From positions 256,001 to 320,000 of the forward strand of contig CM000208.1 of assembly GCA_000002445.1 (NCBI GenBank): DNA of 64,000 bases, written 5' to 3'. The notes under the pieces were generated by a model. It worked only from the letters and a program-made list of their open reading frames with translations, made no database searches and was not told the origin of the DNA. A program made the position numbers and the translations under genes. Within the stretch, counting starts at the first letter, position 1. Each line of letters opens with the position of its first letter. Below are positions 13,961 to 28,913 of the stretch, one piece after another. This stretch comes from Trypanosoma brucei (taxonomy: Eukaryota).

Positions 13961-15124
13961 GTGCCAAGCATGGCAGCAGTGATGAAATTAGAAAAGTTCT
14001 TCGTTGCAACGCTTATCGTTGCCGTCACGAGGTGCTTCGCAGAGGAAGTGGACACCGTTGCTCCAGGTAAGGCACCACCACAGGACGTAGTAAATACCTT
14101 GTGTGGGGCGAAGCATTTATTAGAAGCAGTAAATAAAAAGGCGGGGACTCTTGCGAGCGAAGTAGAAAAGCATGTCACTGATGCGAAGGCTTCTCTAGAC
14201 GGAACTGTCAAAGCGTCAAAGAGCACGCAGACCTTGTACGAAAAACTGCAGAAGGATGTAATGGATGCGGGCCTTACCGCTGTTGTTGTAGAACGGATGA
14301 AGGGAATTGCCGACGCCGCTGTCGAGGTGGCGGCGAGTGCCGAGGAAGCTTATGAAAAAGTGATACGAACGAATGAAAGTGTTGGGACAGCCGCAGCGGA
14401 GATAGAAACGAGTTCGAACCACTCCGCGAACCTTATCGACAAAATACTAATGGCCACCGCGGGGGTGGAAGATAAGGAAACAGAAGAAGACTTTTGCAGT
14501 GGTGTTGAAAATAAATATGGTGATGGCCTCAAGAATGCGAGTCGGCCGCATTGTCGACTATTTGACAACTGTAAGTTGGACGATATTAATGGCAAGGCAT
14601 GGCAGCCCACGCACATGGAGCTGGTAATCACATACCATGGGATATGTTATCGTCTTGACGCGGTAGAACTGTCTATGGGAATTGCAAAGGACGCGGCTAC
14701 GAAGGCATCGCAGATGAAGACGCGTGCTGAAGAGGGAATGGCGTCAGCTTATCAAGAGTCGATTGTCGTGGCGAGGGAAATTGCCGGGGAGGCGGAGAGA
14801 AAAAGACTACTAGCAGAAAAGGAGCTGGCGGAAACAAGGGAGAAAGCGGCTGCAGATGCCAAAGCTCGGAAAGAAGCGGAGGAAGAAATGAGACGGAGGG
14901 CCGAAAGGGAAAGAGCGGAAAAAGAGGAAGCTGTCGCTAGGGCGGAGCGAATGGAAAAAAAGGGGAAAACAGTAGCCGAAGTTGTGGTGAAGGCTGAACA
15001 TGATCAAAAGGCAAAAGACGGTGCAAGTGACATCAGCAGCCGGAGAATCGGATCCCTATGGAGTCCATTGCGCGACGTTTGGTTAATACTTCCTGCCGCC
15101 TCGCTGTGTTTATGGACTCAATGA
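13961..15124 (+). CDS. Putative secreted or GPI-anchored surface-type protein, with signal peptide, alpha-helical KE-rich region and hydrophobic C-terminus
   Basis: The N-terminus MPSMAAVMKLEKFFVATLIVAVTRCFA has an h-region and a cleavage-like site. Cysteines are spaced through the N-terminal half. A K/E/R-rich helical block lies at about residues 270-340. The C-terminal GSLWSPLRDVWLILPAASLCLWTQ is hydrophobic, like a GPI addition signal. Confidence 0.55.
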   Translation: MPSMAAVMKLEKFFVATLIVAVTRCFAEEVDTVAPGKAPPQDVVNTLCGAKHLLEAVNKKAGTLASEVEKHVTDAKASLDGTVKASKSTQTLYEKLQKDVMDAGLTAVVVERMKGIADAAVEVAASAEEAYEKVIRTNESVGTAAAEIETSSNHSANLIDKILMATAGVEDKETEEDFCSGVENKYGDGLKNASRPHCRLFDNCKLDDINGKAWQPTHMELVITYHGICYRLDAVELSMGIAKDAATKASQMKTRAEEGMASAYQESIVVAREIAGEAERKRLLAEKELAETREKAAADAKARKEAEEEMRRRAERERAEKEEAVARAERMEKKGKTVAEVVVKAEHDQKAKDGASDISSRRIGSLWSPLRDVWLILPAASLCLWTQ

Positions 15125-16365
15125 AAGAAACTTATAGGACTGTTGAAATTCACACGAACACGTCATATGATACGAACTCTACAGTCAAGCGATTTGAATT
15201 GTGCCGCACCTCTCCCGGTGCGTGCCCTCAATATTTCTATTCGTATTCACCTAGCCTTCGTTAAGGGTGAATACGGTAACGTATAATTTTTGCTTTATAA
15301 AGGGAAAATGAAGGGAACTTATTAGTGTGAATAAAGCGGGTGACGGAGGGCTCCCTCAGTGTTTATCCGATTACGATGTGAATGTTATTTGTCTTCCTCA
15401 AGTGAAGTTTGGTGTCGTGATGCAGTTGGAACATGCCATTGGTTGCGCGACATGATGTTTTGCTGCTGTTTCTTTTAAAAGGAAAAAAAACAAAGTATTG
15501 ACAACAACAATAATAATAATAATAGAGTGAATAGATACGCGATGGAAAGGAGGATGGGGGCGGTTGCTGTCATCCCACGCCTAAACACTATGCGCTGTTC
15601 GTCACCTGCATGGTTAACAACCCCGTGACTTATCTCATAACATCCCATTCCGACACAGCATTCGTTCCCGTAAGCGAAGTTTTTTTTCCCCCTTCAATGT
15701 GCTTTTGCGAGGCGATTATCCTTAAGGAAGATCCACGTATGTGTTTATGTATTTTCGTATTCATGAATTTGTGTACTTATATATTCGCACAAGTAAAATG
15801 AAGGAACAACTGTTTTTGTCTCATATTGTTTTCTTTTTTGTTTTGTTTTCAATGGGAGGACGGTTCTCTTCATTGGGGGAAACCCCGTTTGAAATTTTAA
15901 CGGGGAAGCGGTTTAGGGCCAATAAAACCGTCTAATGTTGATGAACTTTCCACACATCAAGAAATTTCGTACCACAATCAGCACCTACCTCTGTTTCTTG
16001 CGTTGCGGTTTGTAAAGTTGCTGGTGACGCAGTAAAGTGGAAATAAATAAATAAACATAAATAAAATTCTGCAGCGCGGAGGGGGAACATATGATTTATT
16101 ATGAAAATGTGTGTTCTCGAATATGAATCTCCCTTTTTATCCTTGTGTGTTTTTGCTATTTTTTCTTTTATTAAGTACCCAACACAGTTGATAGGCTGTT
16201 CGTACCGCTGCGTCCGAAGTAAAAAATTTTTTATTTTTTATTTTTCCTTTGAACAGTAATAACGATAGCAGCAGCTATAGCACCGACCATCACCACTAAT
16301 AATAATATTATTGTTGTTGTTATTGTTGCCGCCCCTTCAAATATTATCGGCATTACGTGTGAATA

Positions 16366-16848
16366 ATGAAAGCCCGTTCCTCCCGCCCAGTGACAACAAT
16401 AACGGTGACATCAGAAGAAACCATTCAAACGCACAATGCACGTGATACCCCACGGACATTTGAGTACAAAACCAAAAGGAATGAACTCATGCGAAGGTTG
16501 GAGGAAATGCGAAATGCGTTGGAAGAAGATAATAATAATAATAATAAAGGATCACGTGTGAAACTTTGTTATTATGATATTACATTTAATTGCAGGGATC
16601 CCGTCGATGTTACTGTTATGAGTGGCTTTCAGAGATTTGAGGGACTCGGGGACACATTAAGCGGACACATGAAATGCGAAGAAGATGACAGGCACAAATT
16701 TGTGGGGTTAATTAAAGAAATTATTCAATTGGATGTGAGTCACCGCGCGAGGAATATGGACAAAAGTGAAATTGCGGTAGTGAGGATTGCAGCAAACTTC
16801 AAGGAACTTAACAGCACCTTCACGAGAAGCGCGGCAACACTCCTTTGA
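16366..16848 (+). CDS. Hypothetical 160-aa protein, last ORF of the plus-strand array
   Basis: ORF with varied, coding-like composition. It contains an in-frame (AAT)n microsatellite encoding NNNNN. A long AT-rich spacer lies upstream. Confidence 0.4.
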   Translation: MKARSSRPVTTITVTSEETIQTHNARDTPRTFEYKTKRNELMRRLEEMRNALEEDNNNNNKGSRVKLCYYDITFNCRDPVDVTVMSGFQRFEGLGDTLSGHMKCEEDDRHKFVGLIKEIIQLDVSHRARNMDKSEIAVVRIAANFKELNSTFTRSAATLL

Positions 16849-19800
16849 GTACAGCTGTTGTTTGCCTGCTTGTTTATTTTGTTGTTGTTGTTTTCTTTTT
16901 TCATTTTCCACCTTCAACATTACCAACTCCAATCCTCCACCCGTGTCGTTGCCGCAACCCCTTCAGCATTCAAAATAAAAAAAAAGAAACATATATAAGC
17001 GTGCGTGTGTGTCTGAGTAATTGGATATTGTATTTTTGACATCCGTTCTATTCAAAAAAGGAACCTGACAAAACAAGCGCATACCGTTTTCCTGCATAAT
17101 TTTTTTTTCTATTTATGTACTCATACATGCGCTTACTAACACTAAGCGAGATGAAAGATATCATATCATGTGATGCGGTGCAAGTTTTGGCATTTTTTTT
17201 TTAATTTTTTACTTGCACTTCAATAACAGGACGATAAACGGAAGTGAGGTACGTCAAGACAAGCCAAGTGTGTCGAAGAAATTTATCAGCAGAAGTCGTT
17301 TCGGCATGCATTTACGCATATTTTTATGTTTATGCATATAATATAAAAGCATATTCATATACTCATTGGTTTATTATGAGCGTGGTGTAATGGTGAATGT
17401 CATTCAAACATTTACACTATACACTTCTTTTACGTTTCATTGGTGCACTAACATTAAAAGTGGGAGTGCCCAGATGAAAGATATTTGGCTGAATATTTAT
17501 ACCGCCACGTAGCGCATAAATAAACAGACATATATTTTTATAAATACAAATTTATCGACGCAATGCAACCGGAGCACCACGGTGGCCCCTACGAGTTATA
17601 TGCCCACTTCTCCTCAAAGAAAAAATATTTTATCTTTTTTTTCATTTTATTTTCCTTTTTACACCTGTGCTGGGAAACTAAACGTATGTCCCGTAGTTTT
17701 TTTTTTATGTACGTGTAGGGGAGGACGGTGGGGAAATGGTCGACGTTGGACGCTTCGAATGGGAGCTCAACCATAACACTATTTTTAGCGTGTGCTTTTT
17801 TTTCTTTTTTAGTTCCTTCTACTGTTCGCGGTGCAAAACAAAAGAACAAATCGCGTACCGTCATATCGCTCGTTTTTTTATTATTATTTACTATTTCCCC
17901 CCCCCCCTCCCTTTGTGGCGTTTCGTTGTCCCCAATTGCTTTTTCTTTCCTTTCCTTCATGTTTGTCCATTTACTGACTGTCAGGATCGAAGAACAATTG
18001 AATAATGGTAATAACAAAGGGCAACTGCACACTTCGCCGTCTAATATGAGGAACGGGATTTTTGAATTGTGATGCCTTCAAGTTCCCTCAAGTCCCAAAA
18101 AATATATATATAGTGTTTCTTTTTGTCCCCTTTACTTCAGCGGTCATGCAAAATCAGCTCCTTCATTTGTTACGGTGCTGAAATTTACTTGAAGTTGTCG
18201 TATTTTAGGGAACCCATGCATGAACACTAACAACAATATTAGTGAAACAATTGCTTAACATATGTGTCTCTGCTGTGATTTCCTTCTTGTGAATTACCTA
18301 ACGGTGTTCAAAAAGTCATTTCGTTGATGCAATTTGTTTCCCCTCCCTTGTTTTGTGGTGACGTACTTTTGACACCGCTGTTGTTTTGCTGGGTCTGATG
18401 GAAGGTTCGGGGACGCAGAAACGGAAAAAGCGAAGGGGAGACATACACTTCTTTTATAATAATAATAATGAGGCTGACTTCCCTATCCTTTTGGCCTCCA
18501 TTAAATTCCTTTTCTTTCCGCCTTGAGCTGCTAGAGCTTTTCCCCAAACTGTATAAACTGCAGAGGGCCACTTAGAAGCCGTGCCGTAGCGAGAGGTTCC
18601 GAATTGACAAAAAGAAGAGCGCGTCAGTCCTCCCTCACAGGTTAACCGCTTTCTAAATAGTTGGAAATTACACAAATATCAACACAGTCCCGCTCACTTA
18701 TTCGCAAGCCGACTTTCGCGTCACAACATTGCGGCCCTCATAAGAAAGCCCTCGCTGTCATCCATTGGAAACCCGTCTCGGTTGACTTCAATAATGTATG
18801 AAACAGGAAGAGTAGCCACCGGGGGAAAGAGGCAGAGAGAGGAACGCCGACGCGTTCCGCTATTCTGGGTGTCAGTTCCATCATGCGTTATCATGGTCTC
18901 GCTTCGGTGCGACTTCTTGAACATTCCAGTAGGGGGCTGTGACAGCGACTTGGCTTTACGGGATTGTTGTTCTGCAGCGCTTCTGGGTTCATTTATTCCT
19001 TCAGCTTTCGCACTTGGGGCCATTCGAGGAAATCGGCGAAGGGTTTCTGGCACCTCAGTCTCATTTAAGTGTGGTTTTCTCCCCCCCCCCCCCAATTTCC
19101 TTGCCGAGTGCCCATCGCAGGTGCCCTGTCAACCCAGCATTCCCGAGAAGGTACTTGGGAAACACCGAATAAGTGCGGCTCCCCGCCCCTCTTTTCTTTC
19201 GTTGCTTCGGTGTGGCCCCAGTGTTTTCTGTCGCCCAAAACCACATTCACCATGTCTGCCCACGTTACTGCGAAAGCAGGGCCCTTAAGAGGCAGCCCTC
19301 AATGCATAGGATGCCGTTCAACTCTTTTCCCAACCTCTCCATTGATGCGATGACGCGTGGTGCGGTGCCTTGTACGAATCCCTGTCACCTCGGCGGCGAT
19401 CCCGCGCTCCCCGACGGCAAGTTTCTTCGCCAAAAAAGCGCCGTTCTCCCAGGGAGGAAAATACCCAAACATTCTTTCACGAGCGGATGTACCCTAAACC
19501 GATCCCCACTTACAGGCGAAAAGCCCGTTGTTTACCATTCCCCCCTTTGTTCTCTCCCTCTCTTTGCCCCATTTACTCCACGCACTCCCCACACGTTTCA
19601 AAAACTTCGCGATCCCCGTGCACGACGTCCAATTTCTCTTTCCCTCCTCATTTCCTCTAACCCTCACAATCTTCAACCTCACCAGCTCCACCATATCCTT
19701 AAACCCCCTCGCCTTCTCTGTTGCGTCTTTGGCTTTTGCTTGAACGAAGGCATACACCAATTTCAATCTCCCTGATATATTACAAAGCCCCCACAGGGCC

Positions 19801-20451
19801 CACTTATCTTGAGTTCACCATTATCCGCAGACGTAAATCTACGAAAGGCAAACAGGACGCAACCAAAGTAATGACTTCTTTTGCGGGCATTCTATGTGTA
19901 GTTTCGGAGGTGAAGGGGAAAGCACACCGAAGTGAAAACTTAGCACCGCAGAAGCACTCCCCGACTAGGCTTAAATACGTTAACATGAGAATATAAGATA
20001 ACATAAGTGAAGCAACGAAAAGAACATAAAAGACTAATATACCAGAAAACACCGCCAACCCCAGCGTAGAGCCTCATCCCGAAAAAAACGAGAGTAAAGA
20101 TCGTTATTTCTGATATCGGGGTAAAGATGGCAACTCGCACACGGAGGATCAGCTTAAAGTACATCTTCTAATTGCGCACCGCTGAAAAGACAAATAATTA
20201 CTTGCGTTAAGTGTCAACTAGATCCCCTCGACCCACAGAGGAAATATCCACCGAAACCAAAGACTACATTTCACTGTGAACAACGAAACACGGGCGGTGC
20301 CTCGGATGGCAAAAAGGTTGTCCCTTTTGAGGATGGCTCATTAAAACATGGTGGGCTTTTGGCGCCCTCAAGGGAGACATCCATAACAATTAGGGGAAGC
20401 TGACTACCAACATTCTACATTTATCAAAGCCTACAAACGACCCCCTCCAAC

Positions 20452-21852: not shown

Positions 21853-22258
21853 ACAACCACAAATAACTAAAAAACTAAGACCCCCTCTAGTGAGATTCAA
21901 CAAAGACAAAAGGTAAAACACGCAAAAAGTCAGTAGTCTACACGGAAAAAAGGAATATTTCAAAACATCCACCAACAAATTACCGCCCCCTCCCTCCCCC
22001 CCCAAAAAAAAGGGGGATCGCAAAAAGAAACTACATTCAAGGACACCAAAAGCACTCGCCGTTGCAAAACATTACTATAGTCACCAGCATGCGCCAGCTG
22101 GGATCCACTACTTTTCCGATTGAAAAAAAAATACTACGAGATCAAAAATAGAAAGCATACTAATCACTGAAGGGAACGACCCTGTCTTATACCACAGGTA
22201 CAGAAGGAAATATATACTCGTCTTCAATGCAATACACATAAATTCGAACAGACTCCGG

Positions 22259-23653
22259 TTACGAGAGTGGTTCGTTCCTCATGAATTTCTCAATTATAGT
22301 GGATGCCGCAGCAGGTTGATCCATCGGCACCATGTGACCCGCACCGTACACCTGCACAAAACTGAAGTGCATTGACGATGTGTTTGATGATACGCTACGT
22401 ACAAGACCCGCAGCACTACCATCAATAGATGAGAATGGGGTACCAGGGGCCTTCACAAACTCTTCACTTCCAGACCACTGAAGTGCAAGTGTCCACTCCT
22501 TATTTCCAATCCAGTTGCAGATAAAGTCCATATCACCGGCATAAATCATTACTCGAACTCCATCTTCGAGGAGTCCACTAATTGTGTAGTTAAAGTTCTT
22601 AAACCAGTCAACGGCAAACATCAGGTTCACCTCCATGTTACAAGCTTGCCAAGTCATTGGATCTACACCCAGAGACCTCTGAACATCCTCACGGTTCATA
22701 AAGTTGTCAACTCCCGTTGTGTTGTAACATAATGGCCCATCACATGTTTTGCGGATATCATAAACGTTCAGGCCTGTAGCTGAAAACAGAGCTACCATCG
22801 GACCACAAGTCACACGGGAAAGCTTGCACGACGAGTCCGCGGATGATGAATTATCAGCGTCACAAGCAGAAATAGTACTTTGACAAGCGGGCACCATCGC
22901 CGACATCATCACATGAACAAAGGAAGATACACACGGACTTCCAAGAACTTCCTTGCACCAGTCCCATGCAAGTCTGGGATATGACGCATATTGTGTATAC
23001 GGATCTGTTAAACCGTTTCCTACAGCCAATCCTGCAAGAGGAATGTATATGCCTTCACCCTTTTTATTGCCTTGGTTAATGCGGTAAGCTGTAGCCGGAG
23101 CAAAGTGGCCACCGTAGCTTTCCCCAACAACAAAGAAGTCGTTTTCACGCAGGTCCTCGTGCTCACCAAAGAAGGCCTGTAGAAAGTTGTACATGTCCTC
23201 CGACACCTCCGCTTCATTCTTATCATAATCCGCTTTATCCGCATACGAAAAGCCCACACCGGCAGGTTGATCGATATATATTACATACGCGTGGTTGTTC
23301 CACGAGTACGTATTGTTGTATATGTCACCAGTCGTTTCGTTCATGAGGCAAGGTCCATTCTCTGCAAGTAGCGCAAACATGGAACTACATCCAGGACCGC
23401 CTGTCATCCACAGGAGCACTGGGGCATTGGGATTGCCATCACGTGGTCCAAATGCCCAGTAGAAGTAATGTTTGTCACTCTGCTCTCCAGGAATATCAAA
23501 ATATCCGCTCCATTGATTAACGCCGGGGTCACAAGGCTCCCAACCAGAGCCCGTCGTGCGAAGCGTCGGACGGCGGATAGCCTGAAGGGCGCTTGCACTC
23601 TGCAATAAGAGTAGCAACGAGATAAGAAAAAGCGACGTGTGGCACAGCATCAT
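22259..23653 (-). CDS. CBP1: Serine carboxypeptidase (S10 family, CBP1/serine carboxypeptidase III-like), tandem copy 1
   Basis: 464 aa with a signal peptide. It has the GESYGG catalytic-serine motif, an S10-type core (WMTGGPGCSS, GHMVP catalytic His region) and N-glycosylation sequons. It is near-identical to copy 2 over the first ~230 aa. Confidence 0.9.
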   Translation of the reverse strand: MMLCHTSLFLISLLLLLQSASALQAIRRPTLRTTGSGWEPCDPGVNQWSGYFDIPGEQSDKHYFYWAFGPRDGNPNAPVLLWMTGGPGCSSMFALLAENGPCLMNETTGDIYNNTYSWNNHAYVIYIDQPAGVGFSYADKADYDKNEAEVSEDMYNFLQAFFGEHEDLRENDFFVVGESYGGHFAPATAYRINQGNKKGEGIYIPLAGLAVGNGLTDPYTQYASYPRLAWDWCKEVLGSPCVSSFVHVMMSAMVPACQSTISACDADNSSSADSSCKLSRVTCGPMVALFSATGLNVYDIRKTCDGPLCYNTTGVDNFMNREDVQRSLGVDPMTWQACNMEVNLMFAVDWFKNFNYTISGLLEDGVRVMIYAGDMDFICNWIGNKEWTLALQWSGSEEFVKAPGTPFSSIDGSAAGLVRSVSSNTSSMHFSFVQVYGAGHMVPMDQPAAASTIIEKFMRNEPLS

Positions 23654-23974
23654 TTGTATGGGAACTTACTTCTACACAGATGATCGAAAGAAACAAATCA
23701 CAATCGGAGAGGAACGGGAGGCAACGGAATGCCGAATTTGGAAACCATGAGAGAGCACCCAACATAGTCACGAAGTTGCAGTATGCTGACCAACGTCCAA
23801 AAAAACATCCGTACAAAGCATGTCGGAAGCAAAGCATTGAGAAACAGCAAAATATTTAAAGTCTTTAAAAGAATAAAAAACACTCGCAGCCACATACCGT
23901 CATAAGTCAGGGCTTTTTAAAAGCAGTAAAGGAATCAATTCAATGCAATACACATAAATTCGAACAGACTCCGG

Positions 23975-25369
23975 TTACGAGAGTGGTTCGTTCCTCATGA
24001 ATTTCTCAATTATAGTGGATGCCGCAGCAGGTTGATCCATCGGCACCATGTGACCCGCACGGTACACCTGCACAAAACTGAAGTGCATTGACGATGTGTT
24101 TGATGATACACTACGTACAAGACCCGCAGCACTACCATCAATAGATGAGAATGGGGTATCAGGGGCCTTCACAAACTCTTCACTTCCAGACCACTGAAGT
24201 GCAAGTGTCCACTCCTTATTTCCAATCCAGTTGCAGATAAAGTCCATATCACCGGCATAAATCATTACTCGAACTCCATCTTCGAGGAGTCCACTAATTG
24301 TGTAGTTAAAGTTCTTAAACCAGTCAATGTCAAACATCAGGTTCACCTCCATGTTACAAGCTTGCCAAGTCATTGGATCTACACCCAGAGACCTCTGAAC
24401 ATCCTCACGGTTCATAAAGTTGTCAATTCCCGTTGTGTTGTAACATAATGGCCCATCACATGTTTTGCGGATATCATAAACGTTTATACCTGTAAGCAAA
24501 AAATCAGATACAAAGCCGCTACAAGCAGCACCAGCCATCTCACAGTAAGAATCCGCGGATGATGAATTATCAGCGTCACAAGCAGAAATATTACTCTGAC
24601 AAGCGGGCACCATACTGTTCATGGAGTCATATGTCTCGCGGGATATACATGAATAGCCGAGAACTTCCTTGCACCAGTCCCATGCAAGTCTGGGATATGA
24701 CGCATATTGTGTATACGGATCTGTTAAACCGTTTCCTACAGCCAATCCTGCAAGAGGAATGTATATGCCTTCACCCTTTTTATTGCCTTGGTTAATGCGG
24801 TAAGCTGTAGCCGGAGCAAAGTGGCCACCGTAGCTTTCCCCAACAACAAAGAAGTCGTTTTCACGCAGGTCCTCGTGCTCACCAAAGAAGGCCTGTAGAA
24901 AGTTGTACATGTCCTCCGATACCTCCGCTTCATTCTTATCATAATCCGCTTTATCCGCATACGAAAAGCCCACACCGGCAGGTTGATCGATATATATTAC
25001 ATACGCGTGGTTGTTCCACGAGTACGTATTGTTGTATATGTCACCAGTCGTTTCGTTCATAAGGCAAGGTCCATTCTCTGCAAGTAGCGCAAACATGGAA
25101 CTACATCCAGGACCACCTGTCATCCACAGGAGCACTGGGGCATTGGGATTGCCATCACGTGGTCCAAATGCCCAGTAGAAGTAATGTTTGTCACTCTGCT
25201 CTCCAGGAATATCAAAATATCCGCTCCATTGATTAACGCCGGGGTCACAAGGCTCCCAACCAGAGCCCGTCGTGCGAAGCGTCGGACGGCGGATAGCCTG
25301 AAGGGCGCTTGCACTCTGCAATAAGAGTAGCAACGAGATAAGAAAAAGCGACGTGTGGCACAGCATCAT
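23975..25369 (-). CDS. CBP1: Serine carboxypeptidase (S10), tandem copy 2
   Basis: 464 aa. Its N-terminal ~235 aa are identical to copy 1. Its central segment (YSCISRETYDSMNSM...CEMAGAACSGFVSDFLL) differs from copy 1, and the C-terminal ~170 aa are shared with copy 3. Confidence 0.9.
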   Translation of the reverse strand: MMLCHTSLFLISLLLLLQSASALQAIRRPTLRTTGSGWEPCDPGVNQWSGYFDIPGEQSDKHYFYWAFGPRDGNPNAPVLLWMTGGPGCSSMFALLAENGPCLMNETTGDIYNNTYSWNNHAYVIYIDQPAGVGFSYADKADYDKNEAEVSEDMYNFLQAFFGEHEDLRENDFFVVGESYGGHFAPATAYRINQGNKKGEGIYIPLAGLAVGNGLTDPYTQYASYPRLAWDWCKEVLGYSCISRETYDSMNSMVPACQSNISACDADNSSSADSYCEMAGAACSGFVSDFLLTGINVYDIRKTCDGPLCYNTTGIDNFMNREDVQRSLGVDPMTWQACNMEVNLMFDIDWFKNFNYTISGLLEDGVRVMIYAGDMDFICNWIGNKEWTLALQWSGSEEFVKAPDTPFSSIDGSAAGLVRSVSSNTSSMHFSFVQVYRAGHMVPMDQPAAASTIIEKFMRNEPLS

Positions 25370-25983
25370 TTGTATGGGAACTTACTTCTACACAGATGAT
25401 CGAAAGAAACAAATCACAATCGGAGAGGAACGGGAGGCAACGGAATGCCGAATTTGGAAACCATGAGAGAGCACCCAACATAGTCACGAAGTTGCAGTAT
25501 GCTGACCAAACAAGGAATTATCTATTATTTGAGGAGGAGGAGAAACATTAAACGCCAGCGAGCTACGTTAATGCGGCCATTGAAATTGAGAAACTCATCA
25601 TTTCTGGCAGCAGCAGAAGTGAGGTACCAGAAAGTAGAACATTCCCCCTCTATTGTGCAGTGGCATATGCATTCAATTGTAACACAGGCATTGGACCCGC
25701 AAATATGCCACTTCATAGAAGTGCATAGCAAGTCTATACGGCAGTAAAGACACAATGTAAAACATAAAGTCCAGAACCGGTAAGGGCATCCAAGAGACAC
25801 AAGGTCCACAAAAACATCCGTACAAAGCATGTCGGAAGCAAATCATTGAGAAACAGCAAAATATTTAAAGTCTTTAAAAGAATAAAAAACACTCGCAGCC
25901 ACATACCGTCATAAGTCAGGGCTTTTTAAAAGCAGTAAAGGAATCAATTCAATGCAATACACATAAATTCGAACGGACTCCGG

Positions 25984-27384
25984 TTACGAGAGTGGTTCGT
26001 TCCTCATGAATTTCTCAATTATAGTGGATGCCGCAGCAGGTTGATCCATCGGCACCATGTGACCCGCACGGTACACCTGCACAAAACTGAAGTGCATTGA
26101 CGATGTGTTTGATGATACACTACGTACAAGACCCGCAGCACTACCATCAATAGATGAGAATGGGGTATCAGGGGCCTTCACAAACTCTTCACTTCCAGAC
26201 CACTGAAGTGCAAGTGTCCACTCCTTATTTCCAATCCAGTTGCAGATAAAGTCCATATCACCGGCATAAATCATTACTCGAACTCCATCTTCGAGGAGTC
26301 CACTAATTGTGTAGTTAAAGTTCTTAGACCAGTCAATGTTGAACATTTTGCTAGCATCAAAAACGCAAGATTTCCAAACAGTAGGGCGGACACCAAGTGA
26401 CTTCTGAACATTCTCACGGTTCATAAAAGCGGGTATGGCATCAAATTTGTAGCAAAGTGTTGCGTTGCATTTTCTTCGGATATCATAAGTACTTATTTTT
26501 GTCAAAGTGAAAAGATTAGTCACAGGATCGCATGTCACACGAGACAACTTACACAAATACTGCGATGATGAAGCGCCAGCGTTGCACGCGTTGATCACTT
26601 TCTGGCAAGCGGGCACCATACTGTTCATGGAGTCATATGTCTCGCGGGATACACACGGACTTCCAAGAACTTCCTTGCACCAGTCCCATGCAAGTCTGGG
26701 ATATGACGCATATTGTGTATACGGATCTGTTAAACCGTTTCCTACAGCCAATCCTGCAAGAGGAATGTATATGCCTTCACCCTTTTTATTGCCTTGGTTA
26801 ATGCGGTAAGCTGTAGCCGGAGCAAAGTGGCCACCGTAGCTTTCCCCAACAACAAAGAAGTCGTTTTCACGCAGGTCCTCGTGCTCACCAAAGAAGGCCT
26901 GTAGAAAGTTGTACATGTCCTCCGATACCTCCGCTTCATTCTTATCATAATCCGCTTTATCCGCATACGAAAAGCCCACACCGGCAGGTTGATCGATATA
27001 TATTACATACGCGTGGTTGTTCCACGAGTACGTATTGTTGTATATGTCACCAGTCGTTTCGTTCATGAGGCAAGGTCCATTCTCTGCAAGTAGCGCAAAC
27101 ATGGAACTACATCCAGGACCACCTGTCATCCACAGGAGCACTGGGGCATTGGGATTGCCATCACGTGGTCCAAATGCCCAGTAGAAGTAATGTTTGTCAC
27201 TCTGCTCTCCAGGAATATCAAAATATCCGCTCCATTGATTAACGCCGGGGTCACAAGGCTCCCAACCAGAGCCCGTCGTGCGAAGCGCTAGAGATAAACT
27301 ACGATAGACAGTATTTGCTAAAACTACGACCAGGATGCAAGCAGCCAGTAACGATAGCATTACCGGATACGAAATGAGCCGCAT
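25984..27384 (-). CDS. CBP1: Serine carboxypeptidase (S10), tandem copy 3, with divergent signal peptide and central region
   Basis: 466 aa. Its signal peptide (MRLISYPVMLSLLAACILVVVLA) differs from copies 1 and 2 (MMLCHTSLFLISLLLLLQSASA). GESYGG and the His region are conserved. The central ~100 aa are unique to this copy. Confidence 0.9.
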   Translation of the reverse strand: MRLISYPVMLSLLAACILVVVLANTVYRSLSLALRTTGSGWEPCDPGVNQWSGYFDIPGEQSDKHYFYWAFGPRDGNPNAPVLLWMTGGPGCSSMFALLAENGPCLMNETTGDIYNNTYSWNNHAYVIYIDQPAGVGFSYADKADYDKNEAEVSEDMYNFLQAFFGEHEDLRENDFFVVGESYGGHFAPATAYRINQGNKKGEGIYIPLAGLAVGNGLTDPYTQYASYPRLAWDWCKEVLGSPCVSRETYDSMNSMVPACQKVINACNAGASSSQYLCKLSRVTCDPVTNLFTLTKISTYDIRRKCNATLCYKFDAIPAFMNRENVQKSLGVRPTVWKSCVFDASKMFNIDWSKNFNYTISGLLEDGVRVMIYAGDMDFICNWIGNKEWTLALQWSGSEEFVKAPDTPFSSIDGSAAGLVRSVSSNTSSMHFSFVQVYRAGHMVPMDQPAAASTIIEKFMRNEPLS

Positions 27385-28913
27385 ATGTAATCTGACGTCT
27401 CTTGCTACTGTATCTAGGTGTATGTATATCTTTTTTATTCTGATTATTATTTATTTAAAAATAAAATACTCTTTGCATCTTTTTTTTTTTGAGTTAAATA
27501 CAGTTTGAAGATAGTCCGCGGTGGTTATGTTGTAACGCCAAGAGTAAGGTAGTGAGATAAATGGGTGAGAAGTTCAGTTGCTCATGTGAACAGCCCCTCT
27601 CTTATTCCTCTCGGGTTTGTTGTTGGTGTCGTGTTGTTAATTTCACTGTAGCTGTTACAACCTCTTTATTGTTAATTTTCATTTCCTTTATTCTCTTCTT
27701 TGTTTTTTCTCTTCTTGTGTGACGTGTCTTCTGGTTTCTCCTTCCTCCTGTTCCGCTTCTTGTTACTTTCCCCCTTTTGTGTTGCTGTTTTCTCTCCCTC
27801 CCCCCCCCGCACTGCACGTGTCTTTTGATTTTCTCTTTATCACACTTCGCGTTACTCTGTTCGTAGCCAAAACAGCAAACACAAACATATATATATATAA
27901 ATATATATTCACTTGTCCGTATGCGCATGGGTTTAATCATTCACCGTGGGGTTTGGAAAAGCTGCTGTGAGGTGCTCCTTTCCTCCCCATTCTATTCTTT
28001 CATGCCCTTCATTTTCCTCTTGTTATTTTGTGTGGTTCATTGCCTGAAACAGCACACGCGGAGTCGTGTCATTTTCACGGTGTAATCGCCGGTGCTCACA
28101 GTGAACAAAAAAATGTAATATAAATACGGGGACCGATGGGTTATGCCGTCGCGACTTGAAAAAAAACGCAAGCGAGGCGATACAATAACAATACACTCGC
28201 ACAAATGCAAGATGACAAGGATATTGAAAAAGACCAGAGGGAAGTGAAAGAAAAAAAAAAAGATCGTCACATCCAATTGTGATTGCACTCCTTCTCGTCA
28301 GTTCGGATACGTGTGTCTCATGCATTTTTGATATGTTCTCGTGAAGCACCCTCACAAACCGTTGTGGTAAACAAAGAGATAGGTGATTCCTTTATTTTTT
28401 TTCTCTTTTTTTCTTTTTTAATACCCTAACTTCCCACAAGTTCTGAGAGAGCGTTATAAATAAATCTCCTCCACGTCGCCAGTAGGGGATAGGACTCCAC
28501 ACGTAAAAGCGCCGGGAAGTGCAAGGACAAAAAAACCAATAAAAACGAGAGGTGCGCCGCCCCGTGGCCAGCGCTGACGAGAAGGAATTAGTGCCTTCAA
28601 CCAACAATTCACTAAAGTCAGCTCTCATCTAGGGATGAAAACGTTGCACGTGCATATAATAAATGTGCAAACACAAATATTTCACATTCTCTCGTTGCGG
28701 CAACACTGTCCTACAGGCCGATCTTATGAGCTGCTCGAGAGGCTTGTTGCACCCGCATACACATGCCAACAAAGTGTTCACCGACATCGATGAGAATTTG
28801 AATTTCCCACCGGCATCATATCAGGCATGCTGTCCCGCTTCTCCGCTCTCGTCTCACGGTTCCTTTCCACCAATGCACTCACCACTTTATCTATCTCCTC
28901 TCTCCGTCTCCTT

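What the first reader, a model, noticed from the sequence alone, without database searches (positions are those of the whole stretch)
22225..27400. Three-copy serine carboxypeptidase array shows gene-conversion mosaics rather than simple duplicates
Copies 1 and 2 share an identical N-terminal ~235 aa and signal peptide. Copies 2 and 3 share the segment RETYDSMNSMVPACQ and an identical C-terminal ~170 aa (including KAPDTPF and YRAGHMVP, against KAPGTPF and YGAGHMVP in copy 1). Copies 1 and 3 share GSPCVS and CKLSRVTC. Copy 3 alone has a different signal peptide and a unique central ~100-aa block. This patchwork is the signature of repeated partial gene conversion among paralogues. The variable block lies in the region that in S10 peptidases sits between the catalytic Ser and Asp/His, so the copies may differ in substrate pocket or glycosylation, since N-x-S/T sequons differ between copies.
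Basis: seen in the sequence. Interest (0 to 1): 0.55.

Follow-up and report, generated by a model that had tools for sequence, protein, structure and literature searches.

The report
Mosaic carboxypeptidase gene array, Trypanosoma brucei
Three tandem lysosomal carboxypeptidase genes of the sleeping-sickness parasite are kept almost identical in their catalytic core by recombination between copies, while a 115-residue helical cap stays very different and is itself a patchwork; this is real, but it is one more case of a known process in an already studied drug-activation locus.

Summary
The window is Trypanosoma brucei brucei TREU927 chromosome 10. The three genes are Tb927.10.1030, 1040 and 1050 (TbCBP1A, B and C), S10 serine carboxypeptidases that activate benzoxaborole prodrugs.

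The mosaic is real. CDS nt 89-710 and 1053-1392 differ at 0-3 sites between any two copies. Nt 711-1052 (aa 237-351) differ by up to 39-55%, and the closest pair switches repeatedly: c1=c3, then c2=c3, c1~c2, none, c1~c2.

Permutation and triplet recombination tests give p<=5e-5. Silent differences at codons whose amino acid is conserved occur in 22/47 central codons against 4/316 flank codons, so selection on the protein cannot explain the pattern.

T. b. gambiense carries the same three types at 99.4-99.7% identity, so the mosaic is not an assembly artefact.

The variable block is the helical insertion between catalytic Ser179 and Asp376. N-glycosylation sequons number 6, 7 and 5.

- The c2/c3 identical C-terminus is 113 aa, not about 170.
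- "CKLSRVTC" is retained ancestral sequence with 6 silent differences, not conversion.
- Copy 3 has the ancestral signal peptide; copies 1 and 2 have the new one.

New here: Leptomonas-type S10 arrays show the same homogenised core with a cap that keeps orthology.

Verdict: a new member of a known kind, of modest interest.

The parts
25984..27384 (-). c3 = Tb927.10.1050 / TbCBP1C CDS (466 aa). First in transcription order, directly downstream of the TCP-1 delta gene.
   Evidence: Exact match to XP_822363. PF00450 E=3.6e-107. Naming from PMC7710103.
23975..25369 (-). c2 = Tb927.10.1040 / TbCBP1B CDS (464 aa).
   Evidence: Exact match to XP_822362. PF00450.
22259..23653 (-). c1 = Tb927.10.1030 / TbCBP1A CDS (464 aa). 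Last gene of the minus-strand transcription unit.
   Evidence: Exact match to XP_822361. PF00450. Genes to the left are on the + strand.
27288..27384 (-). c3 nt 1-97: the ancestral-type signal peptide region. Not homologous to the c1/c2 N-terminus.
   Evidence: 57/88 differences from c1/c2. Resembles the T. congolense and T. vivax N-termini.
25282..25509 (-). 228-nt unit upstream of and into c2: 140 nt of 5' flank plus 88 nt encoding the novel signal peptide. An identical copy lies at 23566-23793 in front of c1.
   Evidence: 100% identity between the two copies, and no other copy in the window.
23566..23793 (-). c1 copy of the 228-nt 5' flank plus novel signal-peptide unit.
26666..27287 (-). 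Homogenised 5' core block of c3 (CDS nt 89-710 in c1 numbering). The same block lies at 24660-25281 (c2) and 22944-23565 (c1).
   Evidence: 1-3 differences in 622 nt between any pair. dS 0.01-0.04.
26327..26665 (-). Central variable block of c3 (aa 237-351 in c1 numbering), the helical cap/insertion domain. Private to c3 from aa 259.
   Evidence: 23-24/48 and 62-65/167 differences from c1/c2. pS 0.59-0.64. Helices H244-264 and H270-291 plus short helices.
24318..24659 (-). Central variable block of c2. Private islands lie at 24642-24659 (island A, nt 711-728) and 24485-24548 (island D, nt 822-885). It is identical to c3 at 24600-24641 and near-identical to c1 at 24549-24599 and 24318-24484.
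22602..22943 (-). Central variable block of c1. Its private island B lies at 22898-22925 (nt 729-756, 21 of 28 nt differ from c2/c3).
25948..26326 (-). Homogenised 3' core block of c3 (nt 1053 to the stop) plus 36 nt of 3' flank shared by all copies. The same block lies at 23939-24317 (c2) and 22223-22601 (c1).
   Evidence: 0-3/340 differences. Repeat family D1.
25370..25983 (-). Long spacer between c3 and c2 (614 nt): about 184 nt of shared 3' flank, about 290 nt present only here, then 140 nt of shared 5' flank.
23654..23974 (-). Short spacer between c2 and c1 (321 nt): the same 3' flank joined directly to the same 5' flank.

Best explanation
The array consists of TbCBP1C, TbCBP1B and TbCBP1A, three tandem S10 (CPY-like, lysosomal) serine carboxypeptidase genes at the end of a polycistronic unit on T. 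brucei chromosome 10.

Shown:
- Each gene has two core blocks, nt 89-710 and nt 1053 to the stop plus 36 nt. These encode the alpha/beta-hydrolase core with Ser179, Asp376 and His440, and are essentially identical in all copies, silent sites included.
- The core blocks flank a 342-nt block (aa 237-351) that encodes the helical insertion/cap domain. This block is highly diverged, and nearest-neighbour relationships within it switch at sharp breakpoints.

Inferred mechanism:
- The duplicates are old. Repeated inter-paralogue recombination (gene conversion and/or unequal crossing-over) keeps homogenising the core.
- The cap block escapes homogenisation. Either its divergence blocks heteroduplex extension, or selection keeps three different caps, or both.
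- Short tracts have shuffled sub-blocks. c2 is c3-like up to nt 770 and c1-like over nt 771-821 and 886-1052.

Expected consequence (inferred): the mature enzymes differ only in the cap, in residues aligned to CPY S1' positions and in N-glycan sites, giving isoenzymes with different substrate ranges. The long identical core blocks also make the locus prone to deletion or contraction by recombination, as published for drug-selected lines.
For: Identity of the locus.

Segment table, as c1-c2 / c1-c3 / c2-c3 differences:
- nt 89-710: 3/2/1 of 622
- nt 711-728: 7/0/7 of 18
- nt 729-770: 21/21/0 of 42
- nt 771-821: 3/24/23 of about 50
- nt 822-885: 31/28/35 of 64
- nt 886-1052: 3/65/62 of 167
- nt 1053-1392: 3/3/0 of 340

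Synonymous divergence: flanks <=0.04, centre 0.3-1.6. Silent-only contrast 22/47 against 4/316, p=1.7e-18.

Recombination tests: run and switch permutations p<=2e-4; triplet tests p<=5e-5, <=5e-5 and 0.012.

Independent assembly: T. b. gambiense has the same three types at 99.35-99.71% nt identity.

Ongoing exchange: sites 309 and 1260 are incompatible with the orthology of the three types between subspecies.

Concerted evolution against other species: core blocks are 98-100% identical within T. brucei and 74-84% (N block) or 64-79% (C block) to T. vivax and T. congolense. The cap is 50-74% within T. brucei and 43-57% to other species. T. brucei monophyly has 100% bootstrap for the core blocks and 41% for the cap.

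Fold of the cap: all 8 cysteines of the cap are conserved in all copies. The AF2 model has pLDDT 94.6, TM 0.84-0.92 to CPY, and an all-helical block.

No other S10 gene in the genome could act as donor (PMC4376731).

The same architecture is seen in two Leishmaniinae arrays, with strong tree incongruence.

Published recombination within the identity blocks produces CBP1A/C chimeras (PMC7710103). T. b. equiperdum has a natural single c3/c1 chimera.
Against: - With only three sequences, every 'shared' pattern is also a private patch in the third copy.
- For islands A and D, outgroups show that the shared state is ancestral. These islands do not themselves prove c1-c3 exchange.
- The origin of the very divergent short islands is unresolved. 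c1 island B matches c2/c3 at only 7/28 nt.
- The direction, number and age of the events cannot be inferred.
- Gene conversion cannot be told apart from unequal crossing-over.
- Evidence for exchange since the brucei/gambiense split rests on two sites.
- Copy number in the DAL972 assembly may be arbitrary (PMC2854126).
- Selection for cap diversity and different substrate specificities were not tested here. Cap dN/dS is about 0.3-0.6, not above 1.
Confidence: 0.8

Rival explanations
1. The triplication is recent, and the cap then diverged through rapid diversifying selection or local hypermutation. No exchange between copies is needed.
For: The cap is the least conserved part of the family everywhere: mean majority-residue frequency 0.53 against 0.63-0.67 for the core. 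c2 and c3 caps carry 2-3 times more lineage-specific replacements than c1. c3 departs from three residues that are >=97% conserved in the family: G294K, N296S and V342A.
Against: Silent sites show the same contrast: pS 0.59-0.64 in the cap against <=0.02 in the core, and 22/47 against 4/316 codons with a conserved amino acid. Selection on the protein cannot produce that. c2 switches nearest neighbour at nt about 771 between two deeply diverged partners. c3 retains 7-12 ancestral residues that c1 has lost, so the caps are separate old lineages.
Confidence: 0.04
2. The mosaic is an assembly artefact: reads from a collapsed or mis-joined repeat were chimerically assembled in the TREU927 reference.
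For: Tandem arrays are hard to assemble. Published comments say that copy number in such arrays can be arbitrary (PMC2854126; PMC1855330). T. b. equiperdum shows one copy only.
Against: The separately sequenced T. b. gambiense DAL972 genome contains the same three types with the same breakpoints. Each differs from its TREU927 counterpart by 4-9 nt. The T. b. equiperdum gene is a clean c3-5'/c1-3' join of the same types. Read-depth and PCR work in Lister 427 treats the locus as three genes with the same unique and identical regions (PMC7710103).
Confidence: 0.02
3. The core identity reflects recent duplication. The divergent cap segments, or just the short islands A, B and D, were imported from donors that are now lost or unsampled (a fourth paralogue or a divergent allele), or arose by local non-homologous events such as micro-inversion or template switching.
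For: Island B of c1 is at the random level of identity to c2/c3 (7/28) and is weakly similar to their reverse complement (shuffle p=0.0055, post hoc). The islands have sharp edges inside otherwise identical sequence. Copy number varies between subspecies, so lost donors are conceivable.
Against: T. brucei has no S10 gene outside the array, and no copy of any island exists elsewhere in the window. The c1 island B peptide keeps family-typical residues in register (S..H..M, as in T. vivax and T. congolense) and is closer to T. vivax than the c2/c3 version (15/28 against 11/28), which an inversion would not give. Frame-shifted alignments give no signal. This rival still needs recombination, so it is a variant of the main explanation rather than an alternative to it.
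Confidence: 0.12

Closest known systems
TbCBP1A-C locus as described by Giordani et al. 2020 (PMC7710103)
   Same: It is the same three genes. That paper already draws regions that are >99% identical among paralogues and regions unique to Tb927.10.1050 and Tb927.10.1030. It shows recombination within the identity blocks giving CBP1A/C chimeras and drug resistance, and shows that S179 is needed for activity.
   Different: That paper does not analyse how the pattern arose. It has no silent-site analysis, no breakpoint or recombination tests, no polarity from outgroups and no comparison with arrays in other genera.
Chimaeric tandem gene arrays of T. brucei (Jackson 2007, PMC1855330; Jackson et al. 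2010, PMC2854126)
   Same: Tandem same-strand duplicates show 'mixed patterns of variation': concerted evolution over part of the unit plus partial gene conversion. 21 of 47 arrays contained chimaeric copies, and subspecies-specific mosaics are common.
   Different: Only arrays with at least 4 copies were analysed. This array (Tb94) appears only in Table S3. Here the boundary between homogenised and diverged sequence coincides with a structural domain boundary.
Yeast carboxypeptidase Y (PDB 1YSC/1CPY), family S10
   Same: 35-36% identity. Same fold (TM 0.84-0.92, rmsd 2.0-2.3 A). The Ser/Asp/His triad motifs GESYGG, DxDFICN and GHMVP are present, as is the cysteine pattern of the insertion domain.
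   Different: CPY is a single-copy vacuolar enzyme. The T. brucei genes form an array whose members differ only in the part aligned to CPY residues about 197-313.
S10 tandem arrays of Leptomonas pyrrhocoris (5 genes) and a related metagenomic trypanosomatid (6 genes)
   Same: The three-part pattern is the same. Core pS is 0.1-0.4 (N block) and 0.1-0.6 (C block) against 0.45-0.83 in the cap. Core trees group by species (99-100%), while cap trees group orthologues across species (74-100%).
   Different: Homogenisation is much less complete than in T. brucei (84-94% against >99.5%). One lineage (M4/Lp2/Lp5) also escapes in the C block. These caps are not orthologous to the T. brucei caps, so the pattern arose separately.

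Membership tests
Peptidase family S10 (serine carboxypeptidase, CPY-like) | Significant match to the family profile over the full length | tested here: met
   PF00450 E=1e-107 to 1e-110, profile positions 8-420 of 420, for all three copies.
Peptidase family S10 (serine carboxypeptidase, CPY-like) | Catalytic Ser, Asp and His in the conserved motifs | tested here: met
   GESYGG (S179), DMDFICN (D376) and AGHMVP (H440) align with CPY GESYAGH, DKDFICN and GGHMVP (the CPY residue numbers Ser146, Asp338 and His397 are from memory). The three residues are invariant in all three copies and in 74 homologues. S179A abolishes function in the published work.
Peptidase family S10 (serine carboxypeptidase, CPY-like) | Alpha/beta-hydrolase core with a helical insertion domain | tested here: met
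   AF2 model pLDDT 94.6. Best PDB matches are 1CPY/1YSC at TM 0.84-0.92. aa 237-351 are helical, between core strands 206-212 and 367-373.
Peptidase family S10 (serine carboxypeptidase, CPY-like) | Carboxypeptidase activity at acidic pH and lysosomal location | not testable with these tools
   Only literature is available: the T. cruzi homologue, and the assignment of CBP1B as lysosomal/endosomal.
T. brucei tandem arrays evolving by concerted evolution with partial gene conversion (Jackson 2007 class) | Head-to-tail copies on one strand within one transcription unit | tested here: met
   Three minus-strand copies with spacings of 1716 and about 2008 nt.
T. brucei tandem arrays evolving by concerted evolution with partial gene conversion (Jackson 2007 class) | Non-random clustering of shared polymorphisms between sequence pairs (GENECONV / triplet criterion) | tested here: met
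   Longest-run permutation p<=2e-4 for all pairs. 3SEQ-type p<=5e-5, <=5e-5 and 0.012. These are my own implementations, not the published programs.
T. brucei tandem arrays evolving by concerted evolution with partial gene conversion (Jackson 2007 class) | The heterogeneity holds at silent sites, so it is not a selection artefact | tested here: met
   dS <=0.04 against 0.3-1.6. 4/316 against 22/47 silent-variable codons.
T. brucei tandem arrays evolving by concerted evolution with partial gene conversion (Jackson 2007 class) | Paralogues within a genome are closer than orthologues between species in the homogenised part | tested here: met
   Core blocks are 98-100% identical within T. brucei and 64-84% to T. 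congolense and T. vivax. Bootstrap for T. brucei monophyly is 100% for the core and 41% for the cap.
T. brucei tandem arrays evolving by concerted evolution with partial gene conversion (Jackson 2007 class) | Rooted phylogenetic incongruence: different pairs share derived states in different segments | tested here: inconclusive
   c1+c2 share derived states over aa 259-274 and 296-351. For islands A and D the shared state is ancestral, and the polarity of island B is ambiguous.
T. brucei tandem arrays evolving by concerted evolution with partial gene conversion (Jackson 2007 class) | Exchange continuing after the subspecies split | tested here: inconclusive
   Only two core sites (309 and 1260) are incompatible with type orthology between TREU927 and DAL972.

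The most novel reading that the evidence does not exclude
In trypanosomatid S10 arrays the helical cap behaves as a protected specificity cassette. Recombination keeps one shared catalytic core homogenised, while selection (and/or rejection of diverged heteroduplex) preserves a small library of old cap variants with different S1' pockets and glycans. This would have arisen independently in Trypanosoma brucei and in Leishmaniinae. A corollary follows: natural contractions of the array, such as the single CBP1C/A chimera with a Y180C change in T. b. equiperdum IVM-t1, would alter sensitivity to carboxypeptidase-activated prodrugs in the field.
Probability: 0.35. Interest if true: 0.5.

Novelty: new member of a known kind. 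Interest (0 to 1): 0.3.

Why it matters
The locus decides whether T. brucei activates valine-ester benzoxaborole prodrugs such as AN11736, and it is also a suramin-sensitivity hit.

The anatomy explains two published observations:
- Resistance arises easily, because 622-nt and about 380-nt perfect repeats flank each cap and invite deletion.
- A CBP1A/C chimera does not restore sensitivity, because the copies differ only in the cap.

It also gives a clean natural experiment for asking which cap residues set S10 substrate range. It predicts that isolates with contracted arrays, possibly T. b. equiperdum, differ in prodrug sensitivity.

As evolutionary biology it is a tidy, domain-delimited case of partial concerted evolution that recurs in another trypanosomatid lineage, but the process itself is well known.

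Tried and rejected
- **Micro-inversion origin of c1 island B.** Reverse-complement similarity is weak (score 9, shuffle p=0.0055, post hoc, and it needs gaps). The c1 peptide keeps family-typical residues in register and is closer to T. vivax. Judged unlikely.
- **Compensated frameshifts in islands A, B and D.** Shifted registers of -4 to +4 give no excess identity. Rejected.
- **Donor sequences elsewhere in the window.** None was found for the islands, the c3 block, the novel signal-peptide unit or the extra 290 nt of the long spacer. The rest of the genome could not be searched. The literature says there are only three S10 genes.
- **tRNA genes or tandem repeats near the array.** None.
- **Base-composition artefact behind the species-level grouping in the Leishmaniinae core blocks.** GC3 differs only slightly between the species (0.74-0.77 against 0.79-0.84) and is similar in cap and core, so it cannot explain the contrast. 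However, an amino-acid NJ tree of the N block does not recover clean species clades, so homogenisation there is partial.
- **Literature support for CPY S1/S1' residue lists.** The search returned nothing relevant, so those assignments rest on memory.
- **T. congolense paralogues.** Nine are reported, but only one T. congolense sequence was identified among the named hits. The age of the caps relative to that species is therefore open.
- **Earlier gene-conversion analysis of this array.** Jackson 2007 lists it as Tb94 but did not analyse it. Seven papers cite the gene IDs, and none concerns their evolution.
- **Failed run.** One bootstrap run timed out and was repeated with a simpler distance.

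Full report
**What the region is**

The three ORFs on the minus strand are c1 (22259-23653), c2 (23975-25369) and c3 (25984-27384). They are exact matches to XP_822361, XP_822362 and XP_822363 of Trypanosoma brucei brucei TREU927, annotated 'serine carboxypeptidase III precursor'. The coordinates fit array Tb94, 'serine carboxypeptidase (CBP1)', chromosome 10, 228880-234005, in Table S3 of Jackson 2007. So c1 is Tb927.10.1030 (TbCBP1A), c2 is Tb927.10.1040 (TbCBP1B) and c3 is Tb927.10.1050 (TbCBP1C), in the naming of Giordani et al. 2020.

All three match Pfam Peptidase_S10 end to end, with E about 1e-108. These are the only S10 genes in the genome (PMC4376731).

c3 is transcribed first, just after the TCP-1 delta gene. 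c1 is the last gene before a convergent strand-switch region: the genes left of about 15.1 kb are on the + strand.

**Check of the observation**

The protein alignment confirms most statements:
- c1 and c2 are identical over aa 1-238.
- c2 and c3 share RETYDSMNSMVPACQ.
- c1 and c3 share GSPCVS.
- c1 alone has KAPGTPF and YGAGHMVP.
- c3 has its own N-terminus and a private block, aa 259-351.

Two points are wrong. First, c2 and c3 are identical only over the last 113 aa (352-464), not about 170. Second, the shared CKLSRVTC of c1 and c3 carries six synonymous nucleotide differences in 24 nt. It is retained ancestral sequence (T. vivax has CKLSRYSC), not a converted tract.

**Nucleotide anatomy**

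Differences per segment, in c1 CDS numbering:

| nt | c1-c2 | c1-c3 | c2-c3 | note |
|---|---|---|---|---|
| 1-88 | 0/88 | 57/88 | 57/88 | c3 not homologous |
| 89-710 | 3/622 | 2/622 | 1/622 | 5' core |
| 711-728 | 7/18 | 0/18 | 7/18 | island A |
| 729-770 | 21/42 | 21/42 | 0/42 | contains island B (729-756) |
| 771-821 | 3/51 | 24/48 | 23/48 | |
| 822-885 | 31/64 | 28/64 | 35/64 | island D |
| 886-1052 | 3/167 | 65/167 | 62/167 | |
| 1053-1392 | 3/340 | 3/340 | 0/340 | 3' core |

Outside the CDS:
- c1 and c2 share a 228-nt unit that is 100% identical: 140 nt of 5' flank plus the 88 nt that encode their signal peptide.
- c2 and c3 share about 184 nt of 3' flank. c1 shares only the first 36 nt of it.
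- The long c3-c2 spacer equals the short c2-c1 spacer plus about 290 extra nt.

**More than chance, and not selection**

- Shuffling the order of the 166 polymorphic sites never reproduced the longest concordant runs (36, 7 and 21 sites) or the low number of pattern switches; p<=2e-4.
- A 3SEQ-type max-descent test names c2 as a recombinant of c3-like and c1-like sequence (p<=5e-5). It gives p<=5e-5 for c1 and p=0.012 for c3.
- Nei-Gojobori dS is 0.00-0.04 in both core blocks. In the central block it is 1.1-1.6 for c3 against c1/c2, and 0.3 for c1 against c2.
- Restricting to codons whose amino acid is identical in all three copies, 22 of 47 central codons carry silent differences, against 4 of 316 flank codons (Fisher p=1.7e-18).

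Diversifying selection alone therefore cannot explain the pattern. The core has been homogenised.

**Not an artefact**

The T. b. gambiense DAL972 locus (L001) has four genes: one c3-type, two identical c2-types and one c1-type. They are 99.71%, 99.64% and 99.35% identical to their TREU927 counterparts and have the same breakpoints. The mosaic therefore predates the subspecies split. The copy number of that assembly may be arbitrary.

Two core sites, 309 and 1260, are incompatible with the orthology of the three types between the subspecies. This hints at continuing exchange, but it is thin evidence.

T. vivax has a single syntenic gene with a c3-like N-terminus. So c3 carries the ancestral signal peptide and the c1/c2 N-terminus is the novelty.

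**Polarity and limits**

With three sequences, 'two share' is the same statement as 'the third is private'.
- Outgroups show that c1 and c3 hold the ancestral state in island A (GSPCVS) and island D (KLSR..C.P). c2 is the derived copy there.
- c1+c2 share derived states over aa 259-274 and 296-351, including the new NTT sequon. c3 keeps 7-12 ancestral residues that c1 has lost.
- Island B is ambiguous. Both versions look like bona fide family variants, and the c1 version resembles T. vivax and T. congolense (S..H..M).

The robust recombination signal is the switch of c2 from c3-identical to c1-identical at nt about 771, between partners that are about 50% diverged on both sides of the switch.

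The c1 cap is the most conservative. The c2 and c3 caps carry 2-3 times more lineage-specific replacements (p 0.01-0.3, depending on the outgroup). c3 departs from three positions that are >=97% conserved in the family: G294K, N296S and V342A.

Against T. vivax, silent sites are saturated everywhere (pS 0.75-0.89). The c1-c3 cap pS is 0.64. The cap split therefore looks younger than the T. vivax split. Its timing relative to T. congolense is unresolved.

**Structure and function**

- The alignment to CPY places catalytic Ser179, Asp376 and His440 in the homogenised core.
- The variable block aligns to CPY residues about 197-313.
- An AlphaFold model of c2 (pLDDT 94.6) superposes on 1CPY/1YSC at TM 0.84-0.92. 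It shows aa 237-351 as an all-helical insertion between core strands 206-212 and 367-373.
- All eight cap cysteines are conserved in the three copies, so all three caps are folded and constrained.
- From memory of the CPY literature (not verified here; one search found nothing), CPY Tyr256, Tyr269, Leu272 and Ser297 line the S1' pocket. Their T. brucei equivalents are Y298 and Y310 (invariant), T313 in c1/c2 against D in c3, and A337 in c1/c2 against S in c3.
- Sequons: c1 has 6, c2 has 7 (the extra one is N260) and c3 has 5 (it lacks N268 and N311 and has its own NAT). All the differences lie in the cap. The figure of seven sites for CBP1B agrees with PMC11236118.

Published genetics fits paralogue-specific function. 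CBP1B re-expression restores AN11736 sensitivity, and S179A does not. A CBP1A/C chimera left after recombination within the identity blocks did not sensitise cells to the drug. TcoCBP1H complements but TcoCBP1A does not.

**Comparative extension**

Paralogues from other trypanosomatids showed the same contrast in protein identity, so I fetched two arrays:
- six tandem S10 genes on a metagenomic, Leptomonas-like contig (L005, genes M1-M6);
- five tandem genes in Leptomonas pyrrhocoris (L007, genes Lp1-Lp5).

pS is 0.1-0.38 in the N core and 0.1-0.6 in the C core, but 0.45-0.83 in the cap, apart from the near-identical pair Lp2/Lp5.

Nucleotide NJ trees are strongly incongruent:
- The N block groups by species (99-100% bootstrap).
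- The cap groups orthologues across species: M1+Lp1 96%, M5+Lp4 96%, M4+Lp2+Lp5 100%, M2+Lp3 74%. Species clades get 0%.
- The C block groups most copies by species, except the M4/Lp2/Lp5 lineage.

GC3 does not differ between cap and core. An amino-acid tree of the N block is less clean, so homogenisation there is partial.

The Leishmaniinae caps are not orthologous to the T. brucei caps: Trypanosoma is monophyletic for the cap at 94%. The pattern of a homogenised core with an escaping cap therefore arose at least twice.

**Comparison with what is known**

Partial gene conversion and concerted evolution in T. brucei tandem arrays is established. 21 of the 47 arrays with at least 4 copies are chimaeric (Jackson 2007), and subspecies-specific mosaics are described (Jackson et al. 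2010). This three-copy array was only listed there.

Giordani et al. 2020 already drew its identical and unique regions and showed recombination within them. Among the seven papers that cite the gene IDs, none analyses the evolution of the array.

The finding is thus a correct and well-supported instance of a known process in a known locus. The added value is the domain-level boundary, the corrected polarity, and the recurrence in Leishmaniinae.

**Verdict**

- Novelty: a new member of a known kind.
- Interest: about 0.3.

Noticed in passing
L002:10001-11404 (T. b. equiperdum GCA_003543875.1, CM010681.1): The syntenic locus holds a single CBP1 gene. It is a clean chimera: the c3 5' flank, signal peptide and N core joined to the c1 cap and 3' end. 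It also carries Y180C next to the catalytic Ser, at a residue that is invariant in 74 homologues. This is the same kind of product as the CRISPR-made, AN11736-resistant CBP1A/C chimera. It may be a real contraction or an assembly collapse.
   Followed up: partly
window 1-20267 versus L001:15098-21392 and L002:13391-19700: Collinearity with T. b. gambiense and T. b. equiperdum ends at window position 20267, about 2 kb downstream of c1. The next 6.3 kb of L001 carries genes on the opposite strand: two without Pfam matches, a tRNA_edit gene and a class II tRNA synthetase. It has no match anywhere in the 64-kb window, although the two other subspecies agree with each other at 99%. The far side of the convergent strand-switch region therefore differs in TREU927.
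   Followed up: partly
L001:7992-11392 (T. b. gambiense DAL972): The c2-type gene plus the long spacer is present twice, with 100% identical CDS, giving four copies. One codon of this c2-type differs from TREU927 c2 at all three bases (CTG to GAA, L to E, c1 nt 1030-1032), and two of those bases match the c3 type. This may be a micro-conversion or a multi-nucleotide change. The published genome paper says the copy number may be arbitrary.
   Followed up: partly
window 25525-25830 (-): A 101-aa ORF sits inside the long c3-c2 spacer and is called as a gene, twice, in the DAL972 annotation. It has no Pfam family on record and is probably not a real gene.
   Followed up: no
window 26327-26665 versus 22602-22943 and 24318-24659: At conserved Cys and Phe codons of the cap, c3 uses TGC and TTC where c1 and c2 use TGT and TTT (6 of 7 silent-variable Cys codons). 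GC3 over the whole cap, however, is the same in the three copies (0.43-0.46).
   Followed up: partly
window 22898-22925 (c1 island B): This 28-nt patch matches c2/c3 at the random level (7/28) in direct orientation. It shows weak gapped similarity to the reverse complement of the c2/c3 patch (TGTTCAT...ATGTC; shuffle p=0.0055, post hoc). Its origin is unresolved.
   Followed up: yes
L005:4447-19102 and L007:10001-20966: In the Leptomonas-type arrays most paralogues have a different N-terminal signal-peptide region, as in T. brucei where c3 differs from c1/c2. N-termini as well as caps escape homogenisation.
   Followed up: no
window 15100-18300: An AT-rich stretch (GC 0.33-0.41) with short AAT/ATT-type runs lies between the convergent transcription units. 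It contains no tRNA genes and no tandem-repeat arrays.
   Followed up: no
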